Shown: piece by piece, positions 3,792 through 26,342 of the stretch
How the letters are laid out: every line of letters starts with the position of its first letter
Position numbering within the stretch: position 1 is the stretch's first letter
From: Thiohalophilus sp.
GTDB taxonomy: Bacteria; Pseudomonadota; Gammaproteobacteria; UBA6429; Thiohalophilaceae
NCBI GenBank assembly: GCA_050116795.1
Contig: JASFNY010000001.1
Location: forward strand, 1 to 35,979
Length of the DNA: 35,979 nucleotides
Reading direction: 5' to 3'
Notes under the pieces: generated by a model
Told to the model about the DNA's origin: nothing
What the model saw: only the letters and a program-made list of their open reading frames with translations
Database searches by the model: none
Translations under genes and position numbers: made by a program

Positions 3792-3801
3792 GCAAGACGA
3801 T

Positions 3802-4449: not shown

Positions 4450-4461
4450 GGAGATGATGAG

Positions 4462-4737: not shown

Positions 4738-4778
4738 TTTAAAGGTTGCATATAAATTCTTGTGAAGAGGAAATAGCG

Positions 4779-5426: not shown

Positions 5427-5435
5427 CGCTGAACA

Positions 5436-5957
5436 ATGCCAAGAAAACATCACTACAGGCGACGTGAAGGCGGCCCTCCGGAGCTGGATGTCACTACCTT
5501 TCTGAATTTGATGGTGGTGCTGGTCCCGTTTCTGCTGATCACCGCAGTATTCTCTCGTATCACTATCCATGAGCTGAGTATGCCGGCATCAGCCGGAGCA
5601 GATCAGGCCAACAAGCCCAAAGTCACGATCGAAGTTATCGTGCGTAAAAACGCACTCGAAGTCGGGGATGGTCGAAGAACCATCGCTCGTTTCAGAAACA
5701 AGGAAGACAATAAATATGATCTGAAAAAACTTTCCGATTATCTTCTTAAAGTCAAGGGCTCTTATCCCGACAAGACTGATGCAGTGATCCTGATGGAGCC
5801 GGATATTGAATATGACTATCTCGTACAAGTTATGGATGCAGTACGCGTGCGAGAGAAAAAACCCAAGGGCGAGATAGTTGAGGAGAATCAAGACAGAGAG
5901 ACTGAGTCTGAAAAAATTGTCCTGTTCCCTGATATATCCATCGGAGATGCGCCATGA
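5436..5957 (+). CDS. ExbD/TolR-family protein (AglQ/AglS-like), with Asn at the usual TM Asp position
   Basis: Basic N-terminus, single TM (ELDVTTFLNLMVVLVPFLLITA), periplasmic motif EPDIEYDYLVQVMDAVR, C-terminal LFPDISIG. Confidence 0.85.
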   Translation: MPRKHHYRRREGGPPELDVTTFLNLMVVLVPFLLITAVFSRITIHELSMPASAGADQANKPKVTIEVIVRKNALEVGDGRRTIARFRNKEDNKYDLKKLSDYLLKVKGSYPDKTDAVILMEPDIEYDYLVQVMDAVRVREKKPKGEIVEENQDRETESEKIVLFPDISIGDAP

Positions 5958-6451
5958 AGCCTTCGCGACGCATAAACCGCATGGCCCGACGCCGTAAAAG
6001 AAGTATGCCGGGTCTTAATCTGGTCTCCCTGATGGATGTGTTCACGATATTGGTTTTTTTCCTGCTTGTTAATTCATCGACAAGTGAAGTGCTCGATACA
6101 CCGAAAGAAATAACTTTGCCCGATTCAATCGTTGAGTCAAAACCCAGGGAGTCAGTTGTTGTGCTTGTTTCAACTGAGGCCATTCTCGTCCAGGGTGAAC
6201 CCGTTGTTACACTCCAGGATGCGCTAAATGATAAATCATCAGTCATCAGTCCGCTAAAAGCTAGTTTGCAGCGAAATAAAGGGAAAAAGATCGGAATAAA
6301 AACAGGTGAAGATTCAAAAGGAGATGAAGTCACAATTCTTGCTCATAAGACGGTTCCCTTTAAGTTATTAAAAAAGGTGATGTCTAGTTGTACCAGCGCA
6401 GGCTATTCAACGATATCCCTTGCCGTAATCCAGAAAGCATCAAACAGTTAG
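5954..6451 (+). CDS. ExbD/TolR-family protein (AglQ/AglS-like)
   Basis: ATGA overlap with the previous gene. TM LNLVSLMDVFTILVFFLL carries the canonical Asp28. Also ITLPDS and AHKTVPFKLLKKVMSSC..AGY. Confidence 0.9.
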   Translation: MKPSRRINRMARRRKRSMPGLNLVSLMDVFTILVFFLLVNSSTSEVLDTPKEITLPDSIVESKPRESVVVLVSTEAILVQGEPVVTLQDALNDKSSVISPLKASLQRNKGKKIGIKTGEDSKGDEVTILAHKTVPFKLLKKVMSSCTSAGYSTISLAVIQKASNS

Positions 6452-6460
6452 TGGTTTTTC

Positions 6461-7983: not shown

Positions 7984-10900
7984 TTGTCCATGTACCGCAT
8001 TGGAAAAAATGTGCAAGCCCCGCGTGCCCTGGTATATCTTGTATTATCAGTGCTTGGACTTCTATTTTCCATTGAGACAGCATCTGCAGAAGCCTGCCCC
8101 AATCCAAATGACATAAGTATCAATCACCAGCCGCAAAGCTATTGTGAGCTGTGCGGTGTTGGTGAGGTTACTCTCCGAGTCGAATACGGGCGTAACTTTA
8201 ATCCTGAAATAACCAATCTCGCCATTACCGAGGATTTCCAGGCCAGTGGGCTTGAACCGATCCCCGGCACTACCACGTTTAACACGCGTTTCGGCGCTGC
8301 ACCACTCTCAACTGATCCAACCCAAACTGCACCAGGCGAGTGGACCTGGGATCTTGGCGGCTTCTGGCTGGATCCGGCTGGTAACAACTCGGGTAACAGG
8401 CAGTACCTGGATATCACGTTCCAGGTACGGCGCTCGAACAGCCAGGACGAAGAGGGGCTCTATTTCGATAGTAAATCAGTGCAGGCTACCCTGGCCTATA
8501 CCACTGATACCGATACCTGTTCAGACGAAACTGACTCCCACACTCTGGACATGAATGCCCCGAATCCGAACATTACCAAGCTGGGCCGCAATGTCGACGC
8601 CAGTCAGGGCGGTTACACGAATCCCGTCTACGGTCACAATAACGATGACATCATCTGGCGCATACAGATCAGTAACAGCGGTCTGGCCGATATGCAGGAT
8701 CTTATGTTCACCGACCTGATGCAGGACGGAAACTTCGAGATTAACTATGCCTGTCCCTCTGAAGGCGAGGCGCTCTCCATTGCCAATGCCAACGGTGCCG
8801 GACCTGTTGGCGGATGTATCGCAGCGGGTAACAGTACGCTCAGCGATTGGGAAGTGACCAATCCTTTTGGTGACGCGGGCACGACAAATTATCCTAATGG
8901 TGGCAGTGTCAATGGGTTCAGCCGCAACCTGAACGGGTGGGAAGTGGATGTGGCCGCCGGTGGTTCCACTTTCATCTACCTGGTCGGCAAGGTCACGGCA
9001 GACGGCTCCTGTACTTCAGGAGGGCGCACCAACACGGCAAACCAGCTTGAGTTTGGCTGTGAGGTAGACGCCAACGGGGTAGGGGGTATTCCTAACGCTT
9101 CCAGCAGCAGTGCGGTGTTGCGAACTTACGTTGGTGATGTCAACGCACAGCTCACGATCAATCGACAGCTCACGGGTATCAATCCCGGACAGCCCGTCGG
9201 TTCCCGGGGTTACGTAACCCTGACTATCACCAACAATACCGGAGGTACCGTCAAGGACATTTATCTGGACGATGTTCTGCCACCAGAATACGTCGTCGAT
9301 CCTACGTACTGGAGCTCGGGTTTGACCAAGACTCTGCCGGTGCGAGGCACGCCGGTGGTAGGCGAGAGTTCCATCGACCCGCTGTATGGCAGCTACGATG
9401 GCATGATTGATCGCCTCACCTGGGAAAACCCGCAGGGATCGTTGAGTTCACCGTCGCAGGATCCATTGCAAAATACCGGTCCACAGTTTCGCCTGTGGAG
9501 TAGCACCTCTTATTCAGATAACGGGGAGACGTACGAACATCTGCTTCGTCATGGCGACGAAATTACCGTCACTTTTCCGATCGTTTTGATCAGCCAGGAC
9601 CGAAGTGTCGTTGAGCCTTACGATCTGGCGGCAAACCTTGATGTTACGCCGGAAGTCACCGGTGACGGGACCGACCCCGCTTACACCTCAAGCCTGAGCA
9701 ATAGTCTGACTATCGACTACAACACACTCTGTAATACACAAGGTGCTCAACAACTGACATTCAATGAGAACTTTGCCGCCTTCCCCGAGGACCTGGATGT
9801 CGCTATTAACGGTACCACCTTTATCCTCACCAATGATCCGAATCAGCAACTGACCCTGCCGGTGACATTGACGAATAACGGGGGACACGAAGCCAGGAAC
9901 TACCATCTGTACGTAACCTTCGGTACCACCATGGACGTGGTGAGCGCCCCGGCCGGGTGTAGTGTTGTTAATTCGCCGAATAGTACGCCGTCCAGTCCCG
10001 ACGAATGGCAACCCATTCCGCGGCAGGTGTGGGTCAAGGACCAGGTCACCCCGATAGCCATTCCATCGACGGCGACCGTCTACGAATGTACCTCACCAAC
10101 TGTCATCTCGCCTAATCAGTCGGTTAACTATAACTTCAACGTTATCAAAACCTCCGATGCTGGCAGGATCGCGGTGGATGATCTCACTTTCCGCGCTGAT
10201 GTGATCGGCGAGATTCTGCTCGATGACGGCACACCGCTGTGGTTCCCGACACCGGTGACGCGTGCTGACGGGCTGACCGATCCGAGCAACAACTACTCGC
10301 TGGATGCGGTCTGGGCACGAGTCATCGGGTTCAACCTGAAGAAGAGCCAGGTTGGTGAATGCAGTGAAAACCCGCCGGCAAGTTTCGACGGCAGTGGATT
10401 CGAACAGGTAGAAATCGGCGAGGAGTGTACTTATCTGATTGAAACCGGTGGGTGGTTCGGTTTTGAAACACCGGGTTATGCCTACATTGCGGTACAGAAT
10501 ATTGACGTTGTCGATGAAATCCCTGATGGCCAGGCCTATATCTCCAATACCGATCCCTATGCGGCTTCCACTTCGTTAATTGGTATCAATAATGATTTGT
10601 CTCGCAACCCGGCCGATCTCACAGCGCCGGATGAACGCTGGTTTGACTGGCGATTCAATACGGCCGACGCCAACCGCATCGAGATCGCCGATGAATGGTT
10701 CATCGTCAATACCACCACGCGGTTGCTGAATAAACCGGTGGATACTCGCGCTGTGCCCAACGTGCACAGTGCTGACAGTTTCAATGTACTGAACTCCACT
10801 TTCGATGCCACCTTCAGTAATCTCAATACCGGAGCGGTGGAGACCTACACACTCGGTCCCTCGACCGTTGGCTATCCGAACGAGCCAATACGCCGGGTAG

Positions 10901-13900
10901 ATCTGCGAATTACTGAACCGAATCTCCTGGTGGACAAACAGGTCTGTAACGAGACCCTGTATGGCTCGGGTACCGGTTGTTCCAATTTCGTCGACCTGGC
11001 CGACGACGGCGATACCCAGGACTCCTATATATATAGAATCACCCTGACCAACCAGGCCAGCAGTGCCGGTTATACGCGGGCCCCGGCCTACGATATCGTC
11101 TCGAGCGATGTGCTTGACAGCAGTGACATGGTCTATGTCGTGCCGTTTGCCAGCGACGGTCTCGACAACGACGGGGATGGGCTGATCGACGGCGCCGACA
11201 GCGACGGCGAGGGTGGCATCAGCGACAACGTGGTGGAAAACGGTACGCCACCCGTCATTACCTATTCGCATACACACAGTTCCGCACTGTTGAAGCTTGA
11301 GCCTGGCAGCAGCGTGACTTTCTACTACCGGGTCGATCCCGACGATTCGGTCGCACCGCTGCAGACGTTGACCAACACCGTGTCAGCGACTTATGACAGT
11401 CTGGCCGGGGACTCGGGAAATCAGACTGTCGCACCGGGAGCAACCGGCACTCTGGGTGGTGCTCGCTTCTATACCTCGGCAGATGCCTCGGCAGCAGTGC
11501 AGATTCTCCCACTGCAGACTCAACCGAAAACCATTTTGCAACTGTCCAACACGCCGCTGGGAGGCACACCTCAATCCGTGTCGATCGGCGAGGAAGTGGA
11601 ATACGAACTGCGGGCGTTTATCCCGGTTGCCAACCTGCGCAACTTTGTCATTCGCGATGAGTTGCCGGCAGGGATTCGCTGTAGCGAGGCTCCGGTGGTA
11701 AATCTGGATGCGGCTCCCTACAGTGCAGCCGGATTTTCACCGGGTGGGCAGATCACGCCTACCTGTACCGGTAACCTCGTGGAATGGAATTTTGGTGACC
11801 AGGAATTAACTGCGGCACCCAGTACCAGCCTGTTTGAATTCCCAGTCACCTTTATCGCCCGGGTTGAGAACATTGCGGCGAATATCGATGGCCAGGTAAT
11901 CAGTAATGGCGATCCCGCCACCGTAGCGCGTCTGAGTTATGTCAACGATGCCGGTTCAACGGTGACATTGAACTTTGGTCAGGTTGATCTGGAAGTCAGG
12001 GAGCCCGAGATTTCTCTGATCAAATCCTTTGCCGTGGCCAATAGTGATGCAGGGGATGTGCTCACCGTAACAGTCAGGGCTATCAATGGCGGTACTGCAT
12101 CGGCCTATAACCTCCAGGTCATGGACGATCTGGTCGGTACGAATCTGACTTACCTGGGCAACCTATCGGGTACCGATCCACCGGATGTGGTCGACACCAC
12201 AACTTTGGGTCCGGATCAACCCATCTTCAAATGGAATCCAACCAATCCGGATTATCAAATACCTGTTGGTGGGGTCAGAACATTCACATTCGATGTACGA
12301 GTCGACACCGCCGCCCAACCTCACGAAATTCTGAATAACACCGCGCAGGCCAGCTGGACCTCGTTGCCGTTACAGACCACGGCACTCAACAGTAGTGGCA
12401 CGATCGGCGCCGATGGTAGTGCCGACGGCATGCGTAACGGTGTATTACCGAACAATCCGCTCGACACCCTGAACGATTACGAAACGGAAGCCAGCGCCCA
12501 GACAGAAGTTCTGCCGCTGACCATGAACAAGACAGATCTGGATCCCGGCCTGGTACCGGCGGTAGGCGCGCGTAAACATTTCCAGATTGAAATCAGTCTG
12601 CCGGAAGGAACAACGCAGAACCTGGTTGCGACGGACAACCTGAATTTCGGTGCACTGAGTTATGTGCTGGAGAACAATGCCAGCTATGACGTGAGTTATA
12701 CCTTCCAGGATATCGCCAGCATCAATGGTCAGTCACCTTCAGAAGGAGCATTAACTGCCTTTCCGGCCGATGGTGCAACCGGAAACATCAGCTGGGACAT
12801 CGGCACCGTGGTTACAAGTACCGAGGATGATTTGACGGTCAATACTGTCAACCCGGTGATCCGTGTCGACTACTACGCACGTATTAACAATGATGCGGCG
12901 ACCAATGCCGGTGACGGCCTGCAGAACCAGGCAACGGTCAACTACAGCAACGGTGAAACGGCCGTGACCGAAACGTTGATAGATACCACGCCAGCCGTCA
13001 GCGTGGTAGAACCGCTGCTGAACATCAACAAGACCGTGGTTAATGTCAGCAATCCCGGTAATCCTCCGATTGCCGGCGATATCCTGCGTTACAGTCTGAA
13101 TATTACAGCCAGTAGCGGCGCCAGCTATTCCGATGCGCTTGATGTTTCGATTAACGACGATCTCAGTCTGGGGCTGGCTTACAGCGGCAATTCGACCGTC
13201 AATGGCGCCGGTAACACTATCAATGATCCTGTTACCAGCGGTGATGGCATCACCACTGCCCAGTCCATGCGCTGGAGCCTGGCCGATGCCAACGCCGATA
13301 TCGATGTGTCCGAGGGCAGCACGGTCACGGTCACCTACGACGTGGTGGTGCTGGACAACGTACTGCCCGGACAGCAGCTGACCAACAGCGCCTCGATTCA
13401 GTGGACCAGCCTGGATGGAGCTGATGCGGCCGAGCGCGACGGTACGGCAAGCCCGGCCTATAACGATTATTTCACCGGGCCGGTGACGGCAATTCTGAAT
13501 GCGCCCGATCTGAACACTATCAGCAAGGCACGCCTGACCGATACTTTTGGCAGCGGCGATGCCAATGTGCGAATCGGCGATATCGTGGATTACGAGTTGC
13601 GCCTGACGCTGCAGGAGGGAACCAGCGGTAATGTATTGGTCAGCGATAGCCTGCCGCAGGGGCTGGCATTTGAAGGTCTGGTCAGCATCAACGGGGACAG
13701 CAGTGCACCCTTTACCTCGGTCTCACCGTTTACCCATACCGCGATCAACAATGCGACGGTCAGCGGCGATCCCGCCATCGGGCCGACGACAGTCACTATT
13801 GATATTGGTGATATCGTCAATGCCGGTGACGGTAATCCGGCAAACAACGATTTCATCATCGTCTACCGGGCACGGGTGCTGGATAACGTCTTTGCCCAGG

Positions 13901-16900
13901 TCAACTCGACCACCCTGACCAACGCGGTCACCTTCCAGTATGACAACATCTCGGGCACCCAGACCCGCAGCAGCAGTCAGGCGATCACCCTGCTGCAACC
14001 GAACCTGAGTGTCAGCAAATCTGCCTCGGCTGCCGGTGGCGATACAGTCATCGAGGCCAATGAACTGGTGACCTATACCGTCGACATCAGTAACAGCGGT
14101 ACGGCACCGGCCTATGATCTGATGCTGCAGGACATCATACCTGTCGGTATGCGTAATGGTACCGCTACCATCACCATGGTCAGCACCACCATCGGCGGAA
14201 CACCGGTAGCGAACCCGGTGCCAATCTATGATGCGACCACCGGTATTGTTAACTGGAACCTGGATACCGGCGTCGCTGATTCCTATACCATCCCGGCGGG
14301 GCAGACTCTGTCCCTGGTGTACCAGGTCCAGGCCGATCCCGATATCGGTGCGGGTCTGACCCTGACCAACCAGGCACAGGGCCTGTCCTATTACTCGTTT
14401 GATGATGAAGCCGCTCCCACGGCGGGCAGTGTCAGCGGTGTGCGGGAAATTTATGGGCCAACCAATACCGCTTCGACCACACTGACTACCGATGCTCCAG
14501 GTGCGCCATTAAAAGAAAATCCGGCCTCGACCGATGTCACCATCGGCGAGACTTTCAGCTATCGCATCACCATCCCGGCGTCACCACATCCAACCGCGCT
14601 GCATGATGTACGCATCCTGGATAACCTGCCAGCGGGTTCCGGTGATGCCGATCTTGGTTTTGTCAGCGTCAGCAAGGTGTCCGGTTCACTGTCATGGACC
14701 CCGGTCAATACCGGCACGGCGACCAGCCTGGTGATCGAAGATACCACTGACGGTATCGATATCCCGGCGGGCGAACAGATCGTTATCGATGTTGCCGTGA
14801 TTGTAAATGACAGTTCAGACAACGTGGCAGGAGTGCTGTTTAACAATACCGCGAGTTATACCTATAACCAGCTGGACGATACGCCGGCAACCCAACAACC
14901 GGGCGGCAGCAGTACCACTGCCGACATGCGGATCGTCGAGCCGCAACTGGTGATGCAGAAATCCGGCCCGGGGCAGATGCAACTCGGTGTGCCGGAGACC
15001 TTCACGCTGGATCTTCAGAATACCGGTAACAGCACGGCCTGGGACATTACGGTCACGGACCTGTTGCCAAACCCCTCGCCGGGCGGCATGTGTGATACAC
15101 CGCCGGCAAACATTACCGCCCAGGTCTTCGAGGCTGACGGCAGTACGGCGGTATCCGGAGTGCTGGTGGAAGGGACCGATTATGTCAGCAGCTTCACCGG
15201 TGACCCGACCTGCAGCCTGACGCTGACAATGCAAACGGCGGACGCCGCGGTGGCGCCGACCCAGCGGCTGATTATTACTTACGAGGCTGAACTGGATCTC
15301 GATAATCCGCAGGCCCAGCCACTGACCAATATTGCCGGCGCCACCGAATGGTTCAGCCTGGATACCGCCGGTGCCGGTGCGACCGGTCAGATCCGTACCT
15401 ACAGCCGCGCGCTGACCGACGGTAGCCTGCTCCATGAAGATGCGCACACAGTAACTTCCGAGTTACCGGAACTCTCTATTCAGAAGACCGTTGACAACGT
15501 AACTTCCAGCCAGAGCCCGGCGAGCACCGCACAACCGGGCGATACCCTGAGTTACACCGTAACCATCACCAATATCAGTGATGTGCCGGTAACCGATTTC
15601 ACCCTGCGAGATGAACTGGATCGACTGAATACTACGCAATCGAAGTTTGCCGCCGGGACGTTGAACATCATCACTTTACCATCGGGTACGGATGTCAGTG
15701 ACAGCAATGGCGGGACGAATGGCACCGGCTTGCTGGAAATACAGAACCTCAACCTGGATGCTCAGGGCGGTGCCAATGACAGTCTGACCTTCGTGTATGA
15801 AGTCACTCTTGCCCCGGTTCTTACCAACGGCAGCCAGGTACTCAACCAGGCCCAGGTAATCATTCTCGATAGCCTGACACTGGATAGTGATGATCCGAAT
15901 ATCGGAGGTGCTGAAGATCCGACAGCCGTAACCATTAATTCTGCCCCGGCATTTGAAGTATGGAAGACTTCCCAGGATCTGACAGATGATCCGGCGACAC
16001 TCGAGGCGGGTGACAGGCTGCGCTATACCATCACGGTGAAGAACACCGGTACCGAGGATGCAGTGAATGTCACGCTGCGCGATCAGATACCGGGTAACAC
16101 CAGCTATGACCCCGGGAGTACCACCTTGAATGGTAGCCCGGTAGGCGATCCGTCGAACGGGGTGTCGGCACTGGAAAGCGGCATGCTGATCAATGCCCCG
16201 GAGAATACCACCGCCGGTTATCTGCGTGCCGACAGCAGCGCCACCACCAGTAACGTGTCAACGATCACCTTCGATGTCATTGTCGATACCAATGCGGTCG
16301 ACGGTACCGTGATCTCCAACCAGGGATTCGTTAACGGGCAAGGGCAGGGCAGCGGTAGCTTCCCGGAACAGCCGTCGGATGATCCTTCGACCGCACTGGT
16401 TGATGATCCGACCATCGACGTGGTGGGCAGCGTTCCGCTGGTCGATTCGCAAAAAATCGTCAGCATCGTCATCGACAACGATGGTGATGGTATCGTCGAT
16501 CCCGGCGACCGGCTGCAATACACCATCATCACCACCAACTTCGGGGCCTTGCCGGCCACGGGCGTAGTCCTGACCGATGCGATCCCGGCCGATACGACTT
16601 ATGTACCCAACAGTACAACGTTGAACACTCTTGCCGTACCGGATCCCGCTGCCGGTGTGTCGGCACTGGAAAGCGGGCTGGATATCAGCTCTTCGGATCT
16701 TACTCCCCCGTTGCCCACCGCCGGTAACGGTACCCTGTCACCGGGTCAGGCGGCGACGGTCACTTTCGAAGTCGATGTGACCGGTGGCGTGCTCATCAGT
16801 AACCAGGGCACGGTTAGCAACAACGAACTGCCGGATGAACCAACTGACCAGGATGGTATCGACAGCAATGGCGATCAACCGACCATCATCGGCGTGGGTA

Positions 16901-19161
16901 ACGTCCAGCAATTGTCGATTACCAAGGATGTTAACGTCGTCGGTGGCGGAGCCGCATTGCCTGGTGGTGAGCTGGAATACGTAATACGGGTTACCAACAT
17001 CAGCGGCGTCGCGGCCACCGATGTGACGATCACCGATAACCTGGATTTGCCGGTAGCTAATCAGCTTAACTATGTAGCCGGTTCGGCGATCATGAACGGT
17101 TCGACGGCGGGGATCAGTTTCTCCGATCCGGTGCTCACAGCCGACTATTCGACTCCTTATGGCGATCTGCAGCCGGGTGACACGGTGGTATTACGCTTCC
17201 GTGCCCAGATCGATTCGGCCCTGGCCATCGGTACCACAATTACCAATACCGCCGATGTCAGCTGGGATGCGGGTACCCGGAACGACTCGGCCAGTGTCTC
17301 GGTCGATGTCGGTGGCACACCGGGCGTTGCCAGTCTGAACGGTAATGTCTGGCACGATGCCGATTTTGATCTCACTGCCGACAGTGGTGAACGGTTACTG
17401 GCGAACTGGACGGTAAACCTGTATCGCAACAGCGTGCTGTATGCCTCGACCCAGACAGACAGCAGCGGTCAGTTCCAGTTCAATGGTGTTGCACCAAATG
17501 ATCTCAGTGGCGATAACTACGAACTGCGTTTTACTGCTCCCGGGAGCGGAGCGAATACCGCCTCACTGGGTGAAACCGATTCGCCGTTTACCGATGGCCA
17601 GCAGTCGATTACCAATATCGTGGTCACCTCGGGCAGCAACACTCAGAACCTGAATCTACCCATACAACCCAATGGTGTGGTTTACGATGCGGTGCTGCGT
17701 ACACCGGTGGCCGGAGCCACGCTGGTCATGCTGCGTGCCTCGGACAATCTGCAACTGCCGGACAGCTGCTTTGATGATACGGCACAGCAGGGACAGGTCA
17801 GTACCGCGAATGGTTACTACAAGTTTGCCCTTAACTTTACTCAACCGGAATGTAATGCCGGCGACGACTATCTCATTCAGATTACACCGCCAGCCAGCGG
17901 TTATACCGCCGCACCTTCTGTACTGGTTCCACCGACGACCAGCGCGGCCACAGCGGCATTTGATGTGCCGTCCTGTCCGGGAACTGCCAGTGATGCGATA
18001 ACCGCCACTACCAACCATTGTGAAGCACAAATCTCTGAGCTGCCGCCGGCGACATCCATTGCGGCAGGACCGGGTACTCGCTATCACCTGAACCTGACCC
18101 TGAATGACACGCTGGTGCCGGGTCACAGCGAAATGTTCAACAATCATATACCACTGGATCCGGAACTGGGTTCAGCCGTCTCACTGTCAAAAGTTGCTGC
18201 CAAGGTCAATGTGACCCGTAGTGATCTGGTGCCCTACACCATCAGGTTGAATAACACGCTGAGTGCACCACTGGCAGCGTTGGATGTAATCGATACCTTC
18301 CCGGCCGGTTTCAAATACGTGAAAAATTCCGCGCGGGTCAATGATACCCCGATGGAACCGGCTATCAACGGACAACAGCTAACCTGGTCCGACATGGTTG
18401 TTGCACCGAATTCCAGCCTAACGATCAAATTACTGTTGATCGTCGGTTCCGGGGTCAACGAAGGGGAATACATTAACCGGGCACGGGTGCTGAACAATAT
18501 CACCGGTGATTATGTCTCCGGGGAAGCCAGTGCCACGGTACGTGTGGTACCTGATCCCACCTTCGATTGTTCAGACATCATCGGCAAGGTCTTTGATGAT
18601 CAGAACCTGAATGGTTACCAGGACGAGGGCGAGCCTGGCTTACCTGGTGCACGTGTCTATACCGCCCGTGGCCTGGAAATTACCGCCGATGAATACGGCC
18701 GGTTCCATGTCACCTGTGCCATCACGCCGAATCAGGATCGCGGTTCCAACTTCATCATGAAACTGGACGAGCGCAGTCTCCCGACCGGTTATCGCGTCAC
18801 CACCGAAAACCCACGAGTGCAGCGCGTTACTCGAGGCAAGATCGTCAAATTCAATTTCGGTGCCACGATTCATCGGGTGGTCAAGCTGGACATGGCCGAT
18901 GCGGTCTTCGAACCCGGTTCAGCCAAAATGCGTCCGCAATGGATACCGCGGCTGGATCTGCTGGTTGGGCAACTCAGGAAAGCGGCATCAGTCCTGCGTT
19001 TGTCCTATCTGGCCGAGAATGAAGATGATGGCCTGGTCGAAGATCGACTCGATGCCGTCAAACAGATGGTCGAGGAACGCTGGGAGGAACCCTACAAGTT
19101 ACGTATTGAGACCGAAGTGTTCTGGCGCGGCGGCGGACCGGATGAGCGGGGTGATCTGTGA
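7984..19161 (+). CDS. Giant exported repeat protein, putative fibrillar adhesin (DUF11/isopeptide-type Ig-like repeats, SdrD B-like domains, degenerate OmpA-like C-terminus)
   Basis: 3725-aa uninterrupted ORF (start TTG 7984 or ATG 7990) with Sec signal ending ASA|EAC. About 16 repeats of pattern K...GDxxxYxIxxxNxG...A...DxLP...N[TQ]A. SdrD B-like starts NGNVWHDADFD and IGKVFDDQNLNGYQDEGE. D/T/N/G-rich and acidic. Confidence 0.85.
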   Translation: MSMYRIGKNVQAPRALVYLVLSVLGLLFSIETASAEACPNPNDISINHQPQSYCELCGVGEVTLRVEYGRNFNPEITNLAITEDFQASGLEPIPGTTTFNTRFGAAPLSTDPTQTAPGEWTWDLGGFWLDPAGNNSGNRQYLDITFQVRRSNSQDEEGLYFDSKSVQATLAYTTDTDTCSDETDSHTLDMNAPNPNITKLGRNVDASQGGYTNPVYGHNNDDIIWRIQISNSGLADMQDLMFTDLMQDGNFEINYACPSEGEALSIANANGAGPVGGCIAAGNSTLSDWEVTNPFGDAGTTNYPNGGSVNGFSRNLNGWEVDVAAGGSTFIYLVGKVTADGSCTSGGRTNTANQLEFGCEVDANGVGGIPNASSSSAVLRTYVGDVNAQLTINRQLTGINPGQPVGSRGYVTLTITNNTGGTVKDIYLDDVLPPEYVVDPTYWSSGLTKTLPVRGTPVVGESSIDPLYGSYDGMIDRLTWENPQGSLSSPSQDPLQNTGPQFRLWSSTSYSDNGETYEHLLRHGDEITVTFPIVLISQDRSVVEPYDLAANLDVTPEVTGDGTDPAYTSSLSNSLTIDYNTLCNTQGAQQLTFNENFAAFPEDLDVAINGTTFILTNDPNQQLTLPVTLTNNGGHEARNYHLYVTFGTTMDVVSAPAGCSVVNSPNSTPSSPDEWQPIPRQVWVKDQVTPIAIPSTATVYECTSPTVISPNQSVNYNFNVIKTSDAGRIAVDDLTFRADVIGEILLDDGTPLWFPTPVTRADGLTDPSNNYSLDAVWARVIGFNLKKSQVGECSENPPASFDGSGFEQVEIGEECTYLIETGGWFGFETPGYAYIAVQNIDVVDEIPDGQAYISNTDPYAASTSLIGINNDLSRNPADLTAPDERWFDWRFNTADANRIEIADEWFIVNTTTRLLNKPVDTRAVPNVHSADSFNVLNSTFDATFSNLNTGAVETYTLGPSTVGYPNEPIRRVDLRITEPNLLVDKQVCNETLYGSGTGCSNFVDLADDGDTQDSYIYRITLTNQASSAGYTRAPAYDIVSSDVLDSSDMVYVVPFASDGLDNDGDGLIDGADSDGEGGISDNVVENGTPPVITYSHTHSSALLKLEPGSSVTFYYRVDPDDSVAPLQTLTNTVSATYDSLAGDSGNQTVAPGATGTLGGARFYTSADASAAVQILPLQTQPKTILQLSNTPLGGTPQSVSIGEEVEYELRAFIPVANLRNFVIRDELPAGIRCSEAPVVNLDAAPYSAAGFSPGGQITPTCTGNLVEWNFGDQELTAAPSTSLFEFPVTFIARVENIAANIDGQVISNGDPATVARLSYVNDAGSTVTLNFGQVDLEVREPEISLIKSFAVANSDAGDVLTVTVRAINGGTASAYNLQVMDDLVGTNLTYLGNLSGTDPPDVVDTTTLGPDQPIFKWNPTNPDYQIPVGGVRTFTFDVRVDTAAQPHEILNNTAQASWTSLPLQTTALNSSGTIGADGSADGMRNGVLPNNPLDTLNDYETEASAQTEVLPLTMNKTDLDPGLVPAVGARKHFQIEISLPEGTTQNLVATDNLNFGALSYVLENNASYDVSYTFQDIASINGQSPSEGALTAFPADGATGNISWDIGTVVTSTEDDLTVNTVNPVIRVDYYARINNDAATNAGDGLQNQATVNYSNGETAVTETLIDTTPAVSVVEPLLNINKTVVNVSNPGNPPIAGDILRYSLNITASSGASYSDALDVSINDDLSLGLAYSGNSTVNGAGNTINDPVTSGDGITTAQSMRWSLADANADIDVSEGSTVTVTYDVVVLDNVLPGQQLTNSASIQWTSLDGADAAERDGTASPAYNDYFTGPVTAILNAPDLNTISKARLTDTFGSGDANVRIGDIVDYELRLTLQEGTSGNVLVSDSLPQGLAFEGLVSINGDSSAPFTSVSPFTHTAINNATVSGDPAIGPTTVTIDIGDIVNAGDGNPANNDFIIVYRARVLDNVFAQVNSTTLTNAVTFQYDNISGTQTRSSSQAITLLQPNLSVSKSASAAGGDTVIEANELVTYTVDISNSGTAPAYDLMLQDIIPVGMRNGTATITMVSTTIGGTPVANPVPIYDATTGIVNWNLDTGVADSYTIPAGQTLSLVYQVQADPDIGAGLTLTNQAQGLSYYSFDDEAAPTAGSVSGVREIYGPTNTASTTLTTDAPGAPLKENPASTDVTIGETFSYRITIPASPHPTALHDVRILDNLPAGSGDADLGFVSVSKVSGSLSWTPVNTGTATSLVIEDTTDGIDIPAGEQIVIDVAVIVNDSSDNVAGVLFNNTASYTYNQLDDTPATQQPGGSSTTADMRIVEPQLVMQKSGPGQMQLGVPETFTLDLQNTGNSTAWDITVTDLLPNPSPGGMCDTPPANITAQVFEADGSTAVSGVLVEGTDYVSSFTGDPTCSLTLTMQTADAAVAPTQRLIITYEAELDLDNPQAQPLTNIAGATEWFSLDTAGAGATGQIRTYSRALTDGSLLHEDAHTVTSELPELSIQKTVDNVTSSQSPASTAQPGDTLSYTVTITNISDVPVTDFTLRDELDRLNTTQSKFAAGTLNIITLPSGTDVSDSNGGTNGTGLLEIQNLNLDAQGGANDSLTFVYEVTLAPVLTNGSQVLNQAQVIILDSLTLDSDDPNIGGAEDPTAVTINSAPAFEVWKTSQDLTDDPATLEAGDRLRYTITVKNTGTEDAVNVTLRDQIPGNTSYDPGSTTLNGSPVGDPSNGVSALESGMLINAPENTTAGYLRADSSATTSNVSTITFDVIVDTNAVDGTVISNQGFVNGQGQGSGSFPEQPSDDPSTALVDDPTIDVVGSVPLVDSQKIVSIVIDNDGDGIVDPGDRLQYTIITTNFGALPATGVVLTDAIPADTTYVPNSTTLNTLAVPDPAAGVSALESGLDISSSDLTPPLPTAGNGTLSPGQAATVTFEVDVTGGVLISNQGTVSNNELPDEPTDQDGIDSNGDQPTIIGVGNVQQLSITKDVNVVGGGAALPGGELEYVIRVTNISGVAATDVTITDNLDLPVANQLNYVAGSAIMNGSTAGISFSDPVLTADYSTPYGDLQPGDTVVLRFRAQIDSALAIGTTITNTADVSWDAGTRNDSASVSVDVGGTPGVASLNGNVWHDADFDLTADSGERLLANWTVNLYRNSVLYASTQTDSSGQFQFNGVAPNDLSGDNYELRFTAPGSGANTASLGETDSPFTDGQQSITNIVVTSGSNTQNLNLPIQPNGVVYDAVLRTPVAGATLVMLRASDNLQLPDSCFDDTAQQGQVSTANGYYKFALNFTQPECNAGDDYLIQITPPASGYTAAPSVLVPPTTSAATAAFDVPSCPGTASDAITATTNHCEAQISELPPATSIAAGPGTRYHLNLTLNDTLVPGHSEMFNNHIPLDPELGSAVSLSKVAAKVNVTRSDLVPYTIRLNNTLSAPLAALDVIDTFPAGFKYVKNSARVNDTPMEPAINGQQLTWSDMVVAPNSSLTIKLLLIVGSGVNEGEYINRARVLNNITGDYVSGEASATVRVVPDPTFDCSDIIGKVFDDQNLNGYQDEGEPGLPGARVYTARGLEITADEYGRFHVTCAITPNQDRGSNFIMKLDERSLPTGYRVTTENPRVQRVTRGKIVKFNFGATIHRVVKLDMADAVFEPGSAKMRPQWIPRLDLLVGQLRKAASVLRLSYLAENEDDGLVEDRLDAVKQMVEERWEEPYKLRIETEVFWRGGGPDERGDL
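16162..16676 (+). repeat. 20-bp exact direct repeat marking a tandem domain duplication in the adhesin gene
   Basis: GTGTCGGCACTGGAAAGCGG at 16162-16181 and 16657-16676 (495 nt apart, 165 aa). Both copies encode STTLN...V.DP..GVSALESG. Confidence 0.8.
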
Positions 19162-22100
19162 TGATTGCTCATCTGCTCATGCTCAAATATGCCACCTATA
19201 CGGGCAACTTGAGGCGACAGCTTGGCCTGACGCTGTTGCTGTGCCTTTTATCTCTGCCGTTGTTCGCAGCGGAAGAACCGGCTGGAGAAGATAGTACGCA
19301 AGACGCTACCGTGACCGAAGTAACAAAGGATGTGATCGGCGAGAATACCGAACAGCACCTGCCGCCGGATGAGGTGTTTATTCCCTGGGTGCAGGATGAT
19401 AGTCAGTACAAGCAGGAAGAAGAGGACCAGGTCGAGATCGAGAAGAGTCTGGAGAAGGTCTACACCACCAAAAAACTGAAAAACGTGGTGCCACCGATCC
19501 GCTTCCAGTCCGGCGTTGCGGAAATACCGGAACGGTTTGTGGTGTTGTTACGCGAAGTACTCGAAAAAATGAAAGATCGTACCAATGTACGACTGCATTT
19601 TATCGGCCATACTGACAACGTACCTCTCAGCGGCAGTGTCGCCGAGCAATATGGCGACAACTTCGGGCTGTCCCGTGCACGGGCCGAGATGGCCGCGCTG
19701 TTCTTCCAGCGCGAGTTAAACCTGCCCCCCGAAGCCATCTCCTATGATGGTGCCGGTGCAACCCGGCCGATAGCCAGTAATGACACCGCTGCCGGCAAGG
19801 CACGCAATCGCCGGGTTGAGGTACAGGTCTGGTATGACGAGGTGAGTGAGAAGGTCGTCGAAAAAGAGATCGAGAAAACCCCGGACAACAAGCGGGTCAA
19901 GATCTGCCGCATGGAGACGGTGTGCAAGATTAGTTACAAGCAGGGATACAGTAAACGAATACGCCTGAAGAACCTGGTACCGCCATTACGCCTGCAGCAA
20001 GGTCAGATCGAATTACCGGAGCGATTTATCGGCGATCTGCGTGAGACCCTGAATAACCTGCGGGACAAGAAGAATGTCATGATCCGGTTTATCGGGCATA
20101 CCGATAACCTGCCGTTGGCCGATCGCGCAGCACGGATCTACGGGGACCATATGGCGCTGTCCAAGGCCAATGCCCGTCGTGTCGCCCTGGTGGTTCAGGA
20201 AAAACTGGGGCTACCCAACCGGGCGGTAAGCAGTGACGGTAAAGGCAGCTCGGTACCGATTGCCAGTAATGATTCGATTAACGGTCGGGCACTGAATCGC
20301 CGAATCGAGGTCGAGTTCTGGTACGACGATCCGCTGGAAGTCATGAATGACGAGATCCAGTCCTGTCCGGACTCCGCCGCCGCTGAAACCGTCACCCGGA
20401 TATATCAGCCGCCTACCGGCCCGATCGAACCGATCTATTTCAAAGACGGAGATCCGCAGATACCGCTCGGTTATACATCGCGACTGCAGCGCCTGATGGA
20501 GCAGATCGAGGAAAAATCCAACGTCAGATTACGGTTCATCGGTTACACCAGTAATGAACGCCTGGAACGGCGTACCGCGATGTTATACGGCGATGACATC
20601 GGCCTGTCCACGGCGCGTGCTCGCAGGGTCAAGGATGAGATCAAGAAAGAACTCTCCCTGAGCGAGAAACAGGTCGAGTTCGAGGGACGCGGCTATGTGC
20701 AGACTGACGAGGTCATTGCGCGCCAGTTTGCAGACGATGACGAATCGAGGGTGGTCGTCCAGATTGTCTATGATGCTCTGGCCATGCTGGATGAAGACGA
20801 GGGAATGGATATCACCCGGATTACCCGCGAGATCGAGCCCAGCAACCCGTATGCCCTGAACCTGATGCGGATTACCGTCGATGGCGAGCCCCTGCATGAT
20901 CCGAATCGCAGCAGTGCTGACATTCAGCGTTGCACCGATGTGGCATTGGAGAAAACCGATATTGAATTCCGCTTCGATAATCTCAAGCTGAAACCGCGAT
21001 TGAATGTCACTGCCTGGCCACGCACCATCAGTTATCTCAACGATCCTGCCACCAGCCTGGAAGACAACCGGACACATTTCCGCGCCTATACCAACTACGC
21101 TGCTTTCATCGACAAAATGGAAGTCCGCCTGTTTAACAAGGGGCAGTCAACACGTGATACCCCGCTCGAAGTGATCGAGCTGAACAAGGATGGCTATGCC
21201 GAATGGCAGCCGCGTCTGGTCGAATTCAATGCGCCCGTGATGGAACTGCAGTATGTCTTGCGCGTCTATGATGCCGAAGGCCGGTTTGATGAGACCGAAC
21301 CCCAGCAGCTGTGGATCGTCGATCAACTGGAAGATGCCGATCAGATGCTGAATATCGATCAGGAATTACTGGTCGGGTATGGGGAAAATCATCTGGCATT
21401 GCAGAACATCCCATTGGAAGGTGGCACGGTGCGGGTCAACGGTGAAAATGTGCCTGCCGATCATACGGTATGGCTGGCCGGTCGTCCGGTGCCGGTCAGT
21501 GACGACAAGGAGTTCGTCAGTGAAGAGATCCTGCCGTCGGGCCTGCATAGCGTGGAAGTGGCAGTAGTCGATCAACAGGGTAACGGGGAACTGTTCCTGC
21601 GCGATCTGGAAATGGACAACGATGACTGGTTCTATGTCGGCATGGCCGATGTCGTGGTCAGCAAGGACAACACCAACGGCCCGGCCAAACTGGTGACCGG
21701 CGATACCACGCACTATGACAATGACCTGACTGTAGACGGGCAACTGGCGTTTTTCGTCAACGGCAAGTTCGGGGACAACTGGCAGTTGACCACCAGTGCC
21801 GATACCCGTGAGGGACCGTTGAACGAAATCTTCAGCAACTTCACCGAGAAGTCGCCCGATTCTATTTTCCGCAGACTGGATCCCGATTACTACTATCCGA
21901 CCTTTGGCGATGACAGCAGCGTTGAGGAACTGGCACCGACCCTGGGCAAATTCTACGTCAAGCTGAAGAAGGACGAGGATTACGGTCTGTGGGGCAATTT
22001 CGATATCAATTACCTGGACACTGATCTGGCCCAGGTTGACCGGACCCTGTATGGCGGCAACCTGCACCTGGAAGATGATGAAACCACCAGCTTTGGTGAG

Positions 22101-24308
22101 AAACGTTATTTGCTGGATGGCTTTGCCGCCGATCCGGGTTCAGTGGCAGCGCGGGATGAGTTGCGCGGTACCGGCGGTTCCCTGTATTTCCTCAAGCATC
22201 AGGATATTCTCATCGGATCCGACAAGCTGCGGATCGAGGTGAGAGACAAGGATTCCGGCATTGTTATCGGTGTGAAGGAGCTGGTTCCGGGGATCGATTA
22301 TGACATCGATTATATCCAGGGCCGGGTTGTGTTAAGCAACGCTCTGTCCTCCACCTCGGATGACAACCTGCTGGTAGAGGATGTTGCGGGCAGTGGACAC
22401 CCGGCCTATCTGGTGGCCCGTTACGAATACACTCCGGGCTTCGAGAAACTGGACCAGGTGGCCACCGGCGGACGTATCCATTACTGGTTCGGTGATCATG
22501 TCAAACTCGGCCTGACCAACAGTAACCAGGGTGAACCCGGCAGCGAAAGCAAAGTGAACGGGGTAGACCTGACCCTGCGTAAAAACAGTGGGACCTGGTT
22601 GAAGATGGAAATGGCCTCAAGCGAAGGGGCGGGTACCGGACTACAGAGTTCCCTGGATGGCGGCTTCAGTTACGATCCACTGGATCTTTCCACCGGTGAA
22701 ACTGTTTCGGCCGATGCCAGCCGCGTGGAAGCCGGTATCAAACTGGATGATCTGTTCGATGGCGCCAACGGCACCGCCACCCTTTATACCCAGCACCGTG
22801 ACGCCGGATTCTCGGCACCGGGGCAGCTGACCAATACCGATGTTGACCAGGTCGGTGGTTCATTAAGTATGCCGATCAACGAATCCCTGCAGCTGGATAT
22901 CAAGGCAGACAGGAAAGACCAGAAACAGGATCTGCAGACTTCGGCCCTGGATGTCAGTGTCGGTTATCAATTGAATGACAACTGGCAACTCACTACCGGC
23001 GGCCGACATGATTCACGCAAGGATGAGTCGCCCGTGGTTCCGACCACCCAGACAGAAGGTCAGCGGACCGATATTGCTTTCAAGGCGGAATACAACTCCA
23101 GGGAGGACTGGACGGCCTATGGCTTTACCCAGTTTACCGCCAATACCACCGAAAGCCGGGAACAGAATGATCGGGTCGGAATAGGCGGCAGTTACCGTGC
23201 TACCAATCGCTTTACCGTGGATGGTGAGATTTCCGAGGGGGATACCGGGACCGGCGCCAGGGTTGGCTCGCAATATCTGTTATCCGATCGCAGCAATATA
23301 TATCTCAATTATGCCCTGGAGAACGAACGCACCGACAATGGAATACGTTCACGCAAGGGTAATCTGACTTCCGGTTTCCGTACCCGGTATTCCGATTCGG
23401 CCAGCGTCTATGCGGAAGAGCGTTATACCCATGGCGATGAGCCGGTCGGCCTGACACACTCGCTGGGCATGGACCTGGCGCCCAGCGATCGCTGGAACTT
23501 TGGGGTCAATCTGGATGCCGGTTCGCTGGAAGATCGCAATGCCGGCACCACGATTGATCGTACCGCCCTTGGCTTTACCGTCGGTTACGGTTTCGAAAGC
23601 ATGAAATATGCCGGCGCCGCCGAGTACCGGATTGATGAAACCGGCTACCCGGATGATACTGTCAGTGAACGGACCACCTGGCTGGTGAAAAACAGCCTCA
23701 AATATCAAATCAACCCGGACTGGCGCCTGATCGCCAAGTACAATCATTCCGATAGTCAAAGTTCGCAGAGCGAATTTTATGACGGCAAGTTCACCGAGGC
23801 GGTTCTGGGATACGGCTACAGACCGACCACCAATGATCGCTGGAACACGCTGTTCAAATATACCTATTTCTACAATGTACCGGCGGCGGATCAGGTTACT
23901 CTGACCAACACCGCTGCGGAATATATACAGAAGAGCCATATTCTGTCGGTCGATACCACCTATGATCTGACTAAACGCTGGAGTATCGGTGCCAAGTACG
24001 CGCACCGCCTGGGGCAAATCAGCCAGGATCGTGAGAATCCCGAATTCTTCGACAGCGAGGCCAGGCTGTATATCCTGCGTGCCGACTGGCACTTCGTTAA
24101 CCGCTGGGATTTACTGATGGAGGCCCGAATGCTTGATCTTCCCGATGCACAGGATCGTCGTAGCGGGGCACTGGTCGGCGTCTACCGGCATATTGGCGAT
24201 AATTTCAAATTTGGTGTGGGATATAACTATACCGATTTCTCCGATGACCTCACCGATCTCGATTATGATAGCCAGGGCGTCTTCATCAATCTGATTGGAA
24301 AAATGTAG
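19158..24308 (+). CDS. Multi-OmpA-domain outer-membrane protein with a large C-terminal beta-barrel region
   Basis: GTG/ATG start overlaps the adhesin stop; signal peptide ends LFA|AEE. OmpA_C motifs GHTD..LSRARA..RPIASN..RNRRVEV and GHTD..LSKANA..LNRRIEV, plus a degenerate third (GYTS..LSTARA). From ~21620 on, alternating aromatic/Gly beta-strands end in GVFINLIGKM. Confidence 0.85.
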   Translation: MMIAHLLMLKYATYTGNLRRQLGLTLLLCLLSLPLFAAEEPAGEDSTQDATVTEVTKDVIGENTEQHLPPDEVFIPWVQDDSQYKQEEEDQVEIEKSLEKVYTTKKLKNVVPPIRFQSGVAEIPERFVVLLREVLEKMKDRTNVRLHFIGHTDNVPLSGSVAEQYGDNFGLSRARAEMAALFFQRELNLPPEAISYDGAGATRPIASNDTAAGKARNRRVEVQVWYDEVSEKVVEKEIEKTPDNKRVKICRMETVCKISYKQGYSKRIRLKNLVPPLRLQQGQIELPERFIGDLRETLNNLRDKKNVMIRFIGHTDNLPLADRAARIYGDHMALSKANARRVALVVQEKLGLPNRAVSSDGKGSSVPIASNDSINGRALNRRIEVEFWYDDPLEVMNDEIQSCPDSAAAETVTRIYQPPTGPIEPIYFKDGDPQIPLGYTSRLQRLMEQIEEKSNVRLRFIGYTSNERLERRTAMLYGDDIGLSTARARRVKDEIKKELSLSEKQVEFEGRGYVQTDEVIARQFADDDESRVVVQIVYDALAMLDEDEGMDITRITREIEPSNPYALNLMRITVDGEPLHDPNRSSADIQRCTDVALEKTDIEFRFDNLKLKPRLNVTAWPRTISYLNDPATSLEDNRTHFRAYTNYAAFIDKMEVRLFNKGQSTRDTPLEVIELNKDGYAEWQPRLVEFNAPVMELQYVLRVYDAEGRFDETEPQQLWIVDQLEDADQMLNIDQELLVGYGENHLALQNIPLEGGTVRVNGENVPADHTVWLAGRPVPVSDDKEFVSEEILPSGLHSVEVAVVDQQGNGELFLRDLEMDNDDWFYVGMADVVVSKDNTNGPAKLVTGDTTHYDNDLTVDGQLAFFVNGKFGDNWQLTTSADTREGPLNEIFSNFTEKSPDSIFRRLDPDYYYPTFGDDSSVEELAPTLGKFYVKLKKDEDYGLWGNFDINYLDTDLAQVDRTLYGGNLHLEDDETTSFGEKRYLLDGFAADPGSVAARDELRGTGGSLYFLKHQDILIGSDKLRIEVRDKDSGIVIGVKELVPGIDYDIDYIQGRVVLSNALSSTSDDNLLVEDVAGSGHPAYLVARYEYTPGFEKLDQVATGGRIHYWFGDHVKLGLTNSNQGEPGSESKVNGVDLTLRKNSGTWLKMEMASSEGAGTGLQSSLDGGFSYDPLDLSTGETVSADASRVEAGIKLDDLFDGANGTATLYTQHRDAGFSAPGQLTNTDVDQVGGSLSMPINESLQLDIKADRKDQKQDLQTSALDVSVGYQLNDNWQLTTGGRHDSRKDESPVVPTTQTEGQRTDIAFKAEYNSREDWTAYGFTQFTANTTESREQNDRVGIGGSYRATNRFTVDGEISEGDTGTGARVGSQYLLSDRSNIYLNYALENERTDNGIRSRKGNLTSGFRTRYSDSASVYAEERYTHGDEPVGLTHSLGMDLAPSDRWNFGVNLDAGSLEDRNAGTTIDRTALGFTVGYGFESMKYAGAAEYRIDETGYPDDTVSERTTWLVKNSLKYQINPDWRLIAKYNHSDSQSSQSEFYDGKFTEAVLGYGYRPTTNDRWNTLFKYTYFYNVPAADQVTLTNTAAEYIQKSHILSVDTTYDLTKRWSIGAKYAHRLGQISQDRENPEFFDSEARLYILRADWHFVNRWDLLMEARMLDLPDAQDRRSGALVGVYRHIGDNFKFGVGYNYTDFSDDLTDLDYDSQGVFINLIGKM

Positions 24309-25709: not shown

Positions 25710-25719
25710 ACATTCACCT

Positions 25720-26340: not shown

Positions 26341-26342
26341 GC

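What the first reader, a model, noticed from the sequence alone, without database searches (positions are those of the whole stretch)
18540..24308. Non-canonical two-gene export or anchoring route: Sec-signal giant plus POTRA-less barrel
Seen: the adhesin has a Sec signal but no RTX nonapeptides, autotransporter barrel, TPS domain or PEP-CTERM/GlyGly tail that I can see. It ends in an SdrD B-like domain and a degenerate OmpA-like alpha/beta segment (VFEPGSAKMRPQW..LRLSY..RLDAVK). Its stop overlaps the start of a partner with a ~900-aa beta-strand-rich C-terminus and no evident POTRA domains. Inference: the partner is a dedicated wide pore, and the adhesin C-terminus stays periplasmic as a retention plug. 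This would be a secretion/display mode outside the types I know.
Basis: partly seen in the sequence, partly recalled or inferred. Interest (0 to 1): 0.75.

Follow-up and report, generated by a model that had tools for sequence, protein, structure and literature searches.

The report
Giant 40-strand pore anchoring surface fibre
Two overlapping genes encode a huge fibre-like protein and an outer-membrane pore predicted to be wider than any solved single-chain barrel, and the fibre's base is predicted to lock inside that pore, so the pair likely forms an undescribed, widespread way for bacteria to export and anchor surface fibres.

Summary
Observation confirmed. Gene A (7984-19161, 3725 aa) is a DUF11/CLIPPER Ig-repeat giant. 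Gene B (19158-24308, 1716 aa) carries three OmpA-type wall-binding domains, two Ig-like domains and a region predicted as one closed 40-strand barrel (pLDDT 82); SprA, the largest known, has 36. No solved relative was found by sequence. The family has 4,726 clusters at 50% identity.

The pair is tightly coupled. All 70 of 80 related loci with upstream DNA hold an A-type gene there, and fusions are common. The near-invariant partner is A's last SdrD-B-like domain (aa 3524-3629), not its OmpA-like tail, which some relatives lack. A complex model puts this domain inside the barrel, across strands 33-40 and 1-3 (score 0.73, best control 0.00).

Best reading (0.6): the barrel exports the stalk and keeps its base docked. 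It fails the membership tests for TpsB, autotransporter, usher, TonB-dependent receptor and SprA. In this clade an Agl-Glt-core-like motor cluster is linked; in most other barrel-bearing genomes it was not found. Export itself is untested. Nine literature searches found no description. This scan noted the same family before on other genomes.

The parts
7984..19161 (+). Gene A: 3725-aa giant with DUF11/CLIPPER and isopeptide-pilin-type Ig repeats; putative surface fibre
   Evidence: PF01345 155.6 bits; TIGR01451 9 stretches; TIGR04226 7 stretches
7984..8091 (+). Putative Sec signal peptide of A (aa 1-36)
   Evidence: hydropathy and sequence; no predictor run
8092..18552 (+). Stalk of A (aa 37-3523): tandem Ig-like domains, one SdrD-B domain at aa ~3117-3225; no adhesive head identified
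18553..18870 (+). Docking domain of A (aa 3524-3629, SdrD-B-like): most conserved part of the C-terminal region compared, predicted to bind inside the barrel lumen
18871..19158 (+). Degenerate OmpA-like tail of A (aa 3630-3725), lacking the usual wall-binding residues; absent in some relatives
19158..24308 (+). Gene B: 1716-aa outer-membrane protein
19473..20783 (+). Three OmpA-C domains of B (aa 106-228, 267-392, 416-542); the first two keep GHTD and NRR motifs, the third is degenerate
20958..21617 (+). Two periplasmic Ig-like beta-sandwich domains of B (aa 601-722 and 744-820), not POTRA
21624..24302 (+). Predicted single 40-strand beta-barrel (aa 823-1715)
21819..21953 (+). Conserved loop after strand 3 (aa 888-932): low confidence in the lone barrel, contacts the docking domain in the complex model
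22143..22430 (+). Conserved inserted beta domain between strands 7 and 8 (aa 996-1091), on the outer side by strand parity; candidate lid or gate
1..7810 (+). Agl-Glt-core-like cluster: 3' end of an unknown gene, two TPR genes, ExbB/TolQ, two ExbD, and a TonB-like AgmX/PglI-domain gene; linked to the pair in this clade only

Best explanation
Gene B encodes an outer-membrane protein predicted to form a single 40-strand barrel likely tied to the cell wall, and gene A encodes a long Ig-repeat fibre whose last SdrD-B-like domain is predicted to dock inside that barrel, so the barrel likely exports the fibre and then holds it by its base. Steps: (1) both chains would cross the inner membrane by Sec (signal peptides seen by eye; inferred). 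(2) BAM would insert the barrel (general knowledge; the C-terminal strand is amphipathic). (3) The docking domain would enter from the periplasm and bind the inner wall across the strand 40/strand 1 seam, ordering loop 888-932 (predicted). (4) The ~3,500-residue stalk would pass through the remaining lumen, probably C-proximal end first, with folding and isopeptide cross-linking outside acting as a ratchet (inferred, untested). (5) The docking domain would stay put, with the OmpA-like tail below it as a stopper and B's OmpA domains gripping peptidoglycan (inferred). In this clade a proton-driven ExbBD/TonB-like cluster may gate, pull on or move the assembly, but most relatives appear to do without it.
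For: Barrel: AlphaFold2 with 123 sequences, pLDDT 81.7, pTM 0.75. Forty strands with short periplasmic turns and the long loops all on one side. Closed porins align from their first to their last residue across model positions 279-1172. Coupling: 70 of 80 loci have the A-type C-terminus directly upstream, and the other 10 start inside gene B. In 401 genomes, the 20 with strong barrel matches are exactly the 20 with strong docking-domain matches. 112 of 113 barrel proteins of 3,000-5,000 aa carry the docking domain and the barrel's N-terminal part in one chain. Fusion L066 has no second signal peptide. In six fused representatives only 17-41 residues separate the docking domain from the periplasmic Ig domain. 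Complex: score 0.73 against a best control of 0.00; the runs share at least 89% of contacts; partner pLDDT at least 84; the mark was reached by 116 of 157 solved complexes and 2 of 215 mismatched pairs, and holds only roughly with my own alignments. Contacts lie on the less hydrophobic face of 11 of 11 touched strands, and are more conserved than other lumen positions (0.81, n=48, against 0.70, n=204).
Against: Nothing shows export, surface location or adhesion. I could not view coordinates, so pore width, lid position and free space beside the docked domain are unmeasured. The complex is a model, and parts that occur fused in one gene tend to pass this test. The direction of the docked domain rests on a few residue pairs. 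Ten of 47 barrel-positive genomes, all weak or distant matches, had no docking-domain match with my query. No adhesive head was identified. No energy source is evident for most relatives: the large TPR gene matched in only 3 of 47 barrel genomes. My coevolution test was too noisy to confirm closure.
Confidence: 0.6

Rival explanations
1. Anchor only: the barrel is a socket for the docking domain, while the stalk gets out by another route such as type II secretion.
For: The model shows binding, not transport. The genome encodes secretins (3 matches). No dedicated energy source is seen in most relatives.
Against: In fused proteins the stalk, docking domain, periplasmic domains and barrel are one chain, so an outside stalk would have to pass the barrel's own lumen. 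A 40-strand pore is far more than a 106-residue socket needs; only 11 strands are touched.
Confidence: 0.13
2. Energised import or sensing channel: the docking domain is a plug, the fibre captures polymers or stays in the envelope, and the ExbBD/TonB-like cluster opens the pore as for a TonB-dependent receptor.
For: The TonB-like gene was found in 37 of 40 close-relative genomes, and within about 20 kb in all 18 where both genes share a contig. Databases label some relatives 'TonB-dependent receptor'.
Against: No TonB-receptor plug or family match. The cluster's large TPR gene was not found in 44 of 47 barrel genomes of the phylum sample. CLIPPER repeats are described as stalks of cell-surface adhesins (10.1101/2025.04.25.650565, passages). 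A stalk of this length would not fit across the periplasm (general knowledge).
Confidence: 0.12
3. Release system like type IX secretion: the docking domain is a transient C-terminal signal, and the fibre passes through and is released or re-attached elsewhere.
For: SprA binds its substrates' C-terminal domain inside its pore (PMC10994853, passages), and SprA gives the longest structural alignments (604 and 633 residues, rmsd about 13).
Against: Fused forms are common and could not be released without cleavage. A folded domain usually follows the docking domain. The pairing is normally one barrel gene with one partner gene.
Confidence: 0.1
4. The structural reading is wrong: the region forms two smaller barrels, an open sheet or an oligomer of a known kind.
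For: Pfam gives weak 8-strand OMP_b-brl matches inside the region.
Against: Two predictors agree on closure: AlphaFold2 (porin alignments span both ends) and ESMFold2 (one small domain touches strands 33-40 and 1-3 together).
Confidence: 0.05

Closest known systems
SprA/Sov, the type IX secretion translocon
   Same: Very large single-chain barrel; a C-terminal domain of the cargo binds inside the pore (PMC10994853, passages); longest structural alignment (8gl6_A Z 16.3, 604 residues, rmsd 13.2).
   Different: 40 against 36 strands; no sequence match with a 123-sequence profile; one dedicated, often fused partner that appears to be retained; OmpA wall anchors; found in Pseudomonadota, Desulfobacterota-type deltaproteobacteria, Nitrospirota and Acidobacteriota.
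Type V secretion: classical autotransporters (Va) and two-partner secretion (Vb, TpsA/TpsB)
   Same: Sec export plus a dedicated barrel; exists as a two-gene and as a fused version; large surface protein.
   Different: No 12-strand autotransporter domain, no Omp85 barrel with POTRA domains, no N-terminal TPS domain; the conserved domain is C-terminal; folded periplasmic domains lie between passenger and barrel. Strand numbers of these families are recalled.
Chaperone-usher pili (FimD, PapC)
   Same: Wide barrel with a mid-sequence inserted domain and periplasmic Ig-like domains, displaying a chain of Ig folds.
   Different: No usher family match; FimD and PapC align only generically (Z 12.4-12.7, rmsd 10-19); the fibre here is one polypeptide; no chaperone gene was seen in this window.
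CLIPPER (DUF11) fibrillar adhesins, e.g. Acinetobacter silvestris B9T28_05395
   Same: Isopeptide-stabilised Ig stalk with an OmpA-like C-terminal domain in a Gram-negative bacterium (10.1101/2025.04.25.650565, passages).
   Different: That paper's main text has no occurrence of 'barrel'; this locus supplies a candidate export and anchoring route.
Agl-Glt core complex of non-gliding bacteria (Luciano et al. 2011, PMC3169522)
   Same: Upstream cluster of TPR, ExbB/TolQ, two ExbD and TonB-like genes; described there as of unknown function (passages).
   Different: Here it is linked to a fibre-barrel pair; the link holds for the triple-OmpA clade only.

Membership tests
TpsB / Omp85 | POTRA domains before the barrel | tested here: not met
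   The region before the barrel is three OmpA domains and two beta-sandwiches; no POTRA match
TpsB / Omp85 | 16-strand Omp85 barrel (number recalled) | tested here: not met
   40 strands in the model; Omp85 matched 1 of 17 members at E=0.033
Two-partner secretion cargo (TpsA) | N-terminal TPS domain and beta-helix | tested here: not met
   No such Pfam or NCBIfam match; Ig repeats instead
Classical autotransporter | 12-strand PF03797 barrel joined directly to the passenger (number recalled) | tested here: not met
   No PF03797 match; folded domains intervene in fusions
Usher | 24-strand usher barrel family (number recalled) | tested here: not met
   40 strands; no usher family match; no sequence match to solved ushers
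TonB-dependent receptor | 22-strand barrel with N-terminal plug domain (recalled) | tested here: not met
   No plug or barrel family match; 40 strands
T9SS translocon SprA | Sequence homology and 36 strands | tested here: not met
   Profile search of PDB sequences gave one unrelated hit at E=1.1; 40 strands
T9SS translocon SprA | Cargo C-terminal domain binds inside the pore | tested here: met
   As a prediction only, and as an analogy:
T9SS translocon SprA | Other T9SS genes in the genome | tested here: inconclusive
   SprA_N not found in the own genome (77% complete), but the search rang in no control either; PorV and others not searched
Type I secreted RTX adhesin | RTX repeats and no Sec signal | tested here: not met
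   No nonapeptide match; N-terminal hydrophobic signal present
OmpA-C peptidoglycan-binding domain | Conserved Asp (GHTD) and Arg (NRRV) (their role is recalled) in B domains 1 and 2 | tested here: met
OmpA-C peptidoglycan-binding domain | The same residues in A's tail | tested here: not met
   Fold is alike but the motifs are missing
CLIPPER (DUF11) adhesin | Tandem PF01345 domains above the cut-off | tested here: met
   155.6 bits against 24.6
CLIPPER (DUF11) adhesin | Lys-Asn isopeptide bond actually formed | not testable with these tools
   First-strand lysines are present in several repeats; triads not checked in 3D
Agl-Glt core complex | Clustered ExbB-like, two ExbD-like, GltG-like and TPR genes | tested here: met
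   (AgmX/PglI domain above cut-off; GltE and GltG models below cut-off)
Agl-Glt core complex | Orthology to gltC, D, E, G and aglR, Q, S by phylogeny | not tested
   No tree was built

The most novel reading that the evidence does not exclude
A new class of bacterial secretion system: the widest single-chain outer-membrane barrel (40 strands) recognises a C-terminal SdrD-B-like domain inside its lumen, exports a covalently stiffened fibre of thousands of residues and keeps it anchored; in one clade it is coupled to the ancestral Agl-Glt motor, which would give that motor its long-missing original job.
Probability: 0.5. Interest if true: 0.9.

Novelty: categorically new. Interest (0 to 1): 0.78.

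Why it matters
If true, it names an export route for the many DUF11/CLIPPER giant proteins of Gram-negative bacteria, in a barrel family of thousands of clusters that databases mislabel as MotB, OmpA or TonB-dependent receptor. It would exceed the largest known single-chain barrel (SprA, 36 strands; 10.64898/2026.03.07.710327). It gives a 106-residue candidate signal and named interface residues, so the idea is directly testable and might serve for surface display of very large proteins. It also offers a concrete partner for the Agl-Glt core complex, whose role in non-gliding bacteria was left open in 2011.

Tried and rejected
Coevolution analysis (mean-field DCA, 317 sequences, about 188 effective) to confirm barrel closure: too noisy, 42 adjacent against 168 non-adjacent strand pairs in the top 400; not used. 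Homology to SprA through the inserted domain: no support from a profile search of PDB sequences or Pfam. Foldseek found no match with TM-score above 0.18 for the query; VIA-align found only generic barrel matches; neither excludes a distant relation. SprA_N search in the own genome was uninformative because no control rang. Pairwise comparison of A's C-terminal alignment with one OmpA domain was not significant (probability 0.4%); only the profile-profile version was, and 3 of 16 tails matched Pfam OmpA, best E=0.0023. The ESM Atlas gave unnamed or generically named outer-membrane clusters for the barrel; it gave no answer for A's N-terminus, which remains unassigned. The idea that the OmpA-like tail is the essential plug was rejected. 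The idea that the motor cluster is an obligate part was rejected for the family as a whole. Two papers on archaeal and Chloroflexota fibres (PMC11821415, 10.1101/2025.08.19.671072), one on type 11 secretion (10.1101/2024.09.26.615229) and one on cyanobacterial signal peptides (PMC13297417) were read as passages only and did not describe this barrel. Sequencing reads were not examined.
Full report
Observation. The window holds two long forward ORFs, A (7984-19161, 3725 aa) and B (19158-24308, 1716 aa), overlapping by four bases. A matches DUF11 (155.6 bits), the isopeptide-pilin D2 model (7 stretches) and SdrD_B. B matches OmpA three times and, weakly, generic barrel models. Both start with a hydrophobic stretch that looks like a Sec signal (no predictor run). 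A has no RTX repeat, PEP-CTERM or LPxTG motif. Upstream lie two TPR genes, ExbB/TolQ, two ExbD genes and a TonB-like gene with the AgmX/PglI domain. Downstream lie respiratory complex I genes, recognised from their sequences and unrelated to the finding.

The barrel. AlphaFold2 on aa 545-1716 with 123 sequences gave pLDDT 81.7 and pTM 0.75. From its secondary structure I count two beta-sandwich domains (aa 601-722, 744-820) and 40 long strands from aa 823 to 1715, leaving out the strands of an inserted domain (aa 996-1091) and one four-residue strand in a loop. With this numbering the periplasmic turns are 2-11 residues and all loops over 11 residues fall on the outer side. I had read an earlier scan note of 40 strands before counting, so the count was not blind. 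I could not view coordinates. Closure into one barrel rests on two indirect results: closed porins align from first to last residue across model positions 279-1172, and in a separate ESMFold2 model one small domain touches strands 33-40 and 1-3 together. No solved chain matches by sequence. Foldseek's best TM-score for the query is 0.18. SprA gives the longest alignments, 604 and 633 residues at rmsd about 13. A 2026 preprint calls SprA, with 36 strands, the largest known barrel (10.64898/2026.03.07.710327; part 1 of 4 and passages). Extrapolating its radius formula, which it says overestimates large barrels, gives a backbone diameter somewhat under 8 nm.

The family. The barrel region found 2,947 relatives among 7,989 scored candidates. 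A 17-sequence profile found 4,726 clusters at 50% identity with E up to 0.001, 2,292 of them at 1e-30. It matched 47 of 401 genomes of the phylum and 25 plasmid records. Named hosts include Microbulbifer, Woeseiaceae, Desulfuromonadales, Nitrospirota, Acidobacteriota, Sinorhizobium and Vibrio. Sources call these proteins MotB, OmpA family, TonB-dependent receptor or hypothetical.

Among 113 barrel proteins of 3,000-5,000 aa, 112 carry A's last SdrD-B-like domain together with the barrel's N-terminal part; the 113th has the domain and only a C-terminal barrel match; 79 also match A's tail. One fused locus, L066, runs from the tail through a short polar linker into B's mature sequence with no second signal peptide, so it is a true fusion. 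In the 401 genomes the docking domain matched 38, of which 37 are barrel genomes, and the 20 strong matches coincide exactly with the 20 strong barrel matches. Ten barrel genomes with weak or distant matches had no hit with this query.

Which part is the plug. The last SdrD-B-like domain (aa 3524-3629) is 71% identical across close relatives, against 52-59% for its neighbours, including an earlier SdrD-B domain. Among 150 representatives, 47 carry it, including all 46 with stalk domains. Only 9 of the 47 match my tail profile, which is narrow and undercounts. In six of them just 17-41 residues separate it from the periplasmic Ig domain. In locus L117 the partner ends five residues after it. 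The tail folds like an OmpA-C domain but lacks the GHTD and NRRV motifs that B's first two OmpA domains keep. So the tail is a usual but dispensable periplasmic extra, and the SdrD-B-like domain is the near-invariant element.

Complex model. Barrel (893 aa) plus docking domain (106 aa) scored 0.73, best of three controls 0.00; runs agree in at least 89% of contacts; partner pLDDT at least 84. The mark was reached by 116 of 157 solved complexes and 2 of 215 mismatched pairs, counts that hold only roughly with my alignments. Parts that occur fused tend to pass such tests, often by likeness to solved structures; here no solved barrel relative was found. Contacts fall on alternating residues of 11 strands, on the less hydrophobic face in 11 of 11, and are more conserved than other lumen positions, 0.81 against 0.70; on the docking domain the difference is small, 0.84 against 0.78. 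Residues 913-930, partly below pLDDT 50 in the lone barrel, contact the domain. The pairs V827-K3593 and M829-I3591, read with the known SdrD-B topology (recalled), suggest that the domain's C-terminal end faces the periplasm and its N-terminal end faces out. That is a weak inference, but it agrees with the short fusion linkers.

Mechanism. In fused chains the order is stalk, docking domain, periplasmic domains, barrel. If the stalk is outside, it must have passed through the barrel's own lumen. That it is outside is inferred from its length and from the description of CLIPPER repeats as stalks of surface adhesins (10.1101/2025.04.25.650565, passages). I therefore favour export plus retention (0.6) over anchoring alone, an energised import channel, release as in type IX secretion, or a wrong fold. 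No adhesive head was identified, so 'adhesin' is a presumption.

The motor cluster. Such genes were seen within 10 kb in 20 of 80 loci, upstream in some lineages and downstream in others. In 40 of the 79 genomes behind those loci, the TonB-like gene was found in 37; in all 18 where it shares a contig with the barrel it lies within about 20 kb, and the other 19 are on separate contigs. These genomes are kin and not independent. In the phylum sample the large TPR gene matched 11 of 401 genomes, only 3 of them barrel genomes. Those three are the window's own, G067 and G178, all with three OmpA domains. Eight have the TPR gene with no barrel match. The cluster resembles the Agl-Glt core complex of unknown function (PMC3169522, passages). 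It is an accessory of one clade, not a requirement of the family.

Comparison and novelty. Membership tests fail for TpsB, autotransporters, ushers, TonB-dependent receptors, type I cargo and SprA. It works most like SprA in recognition (PMC10994853, passages) and like type V systems in its one-barrel, one-passenger logic. Nine searches of the held library returned no paper describing this barrel family, judged mostly from listings; most subscription journals are not covered, and no supplements were read, where such genes could be listed. Earlier notes of this scan reached similar readings on other genomes; they are unchecked leads, not independent support. Verdict: a real, widespread and probably undescribed export-and-anchor module, resting wholly on computation; interest 0.78.

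Noticed in passing
G000:C209:100-4392 (minus strand): A second, distant barrel-family gene in the same genome: an open frame of 1431 aa cut by the contig end, starting in an SdrD-like domain and holding an OmpA-like stretch and a barrel in one chain.
   Followed up: partly
L033:6129-18494 (Acinetobacter haemolyticus plasmid): Several small DUF11/NEW3 genes, a fused DUF11-SdrD-barrel gene, an OmpA gene and another DUF11 gene: a pilus-like layout of the distant barrel class.
   Followed up: partly
L114:13221-16501 and L115:10744-12972: The docking-domain partner is only 743-771 aa; in L114 another DUF11-type gene lies next to it, so the stalk may be built from separate chains.
   Followed up: no
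L118-L121: Partners carry about 200 residues after the docking domain, apparently two OmpA-like units instead of one.
   Followed up: no
L050 and L051 (Microbulbifer sediminum): Two tandem copies of the fibre-barrel pair with identical barrel scores; a real duplication or an assembly artefact.
   Followed up: no
window 1-7810 against 7984-24308: G+C is mostly 44-48% in the motor cluster and 53-58% in the fibre and barrel genes, although the two are linked across the clade.
   Followed up: no
window 1-666: 3' end of a gene cut by the contig start; relatives are about 630-690 aa and sit first in the motor cluster; no informative family match.
   Followed up: no
window 24303-24308: The barrel ends in Met here; relatives end in Phe, Tyr, Ile, Leu or Met, a looser C-terminal signal than the usual aromatic residue.
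   Followed up: no
window 24741-35979: Respiratory complex I (nuo) genes, recognised from the translations; ordinary and unrelated.
   Followed up: no
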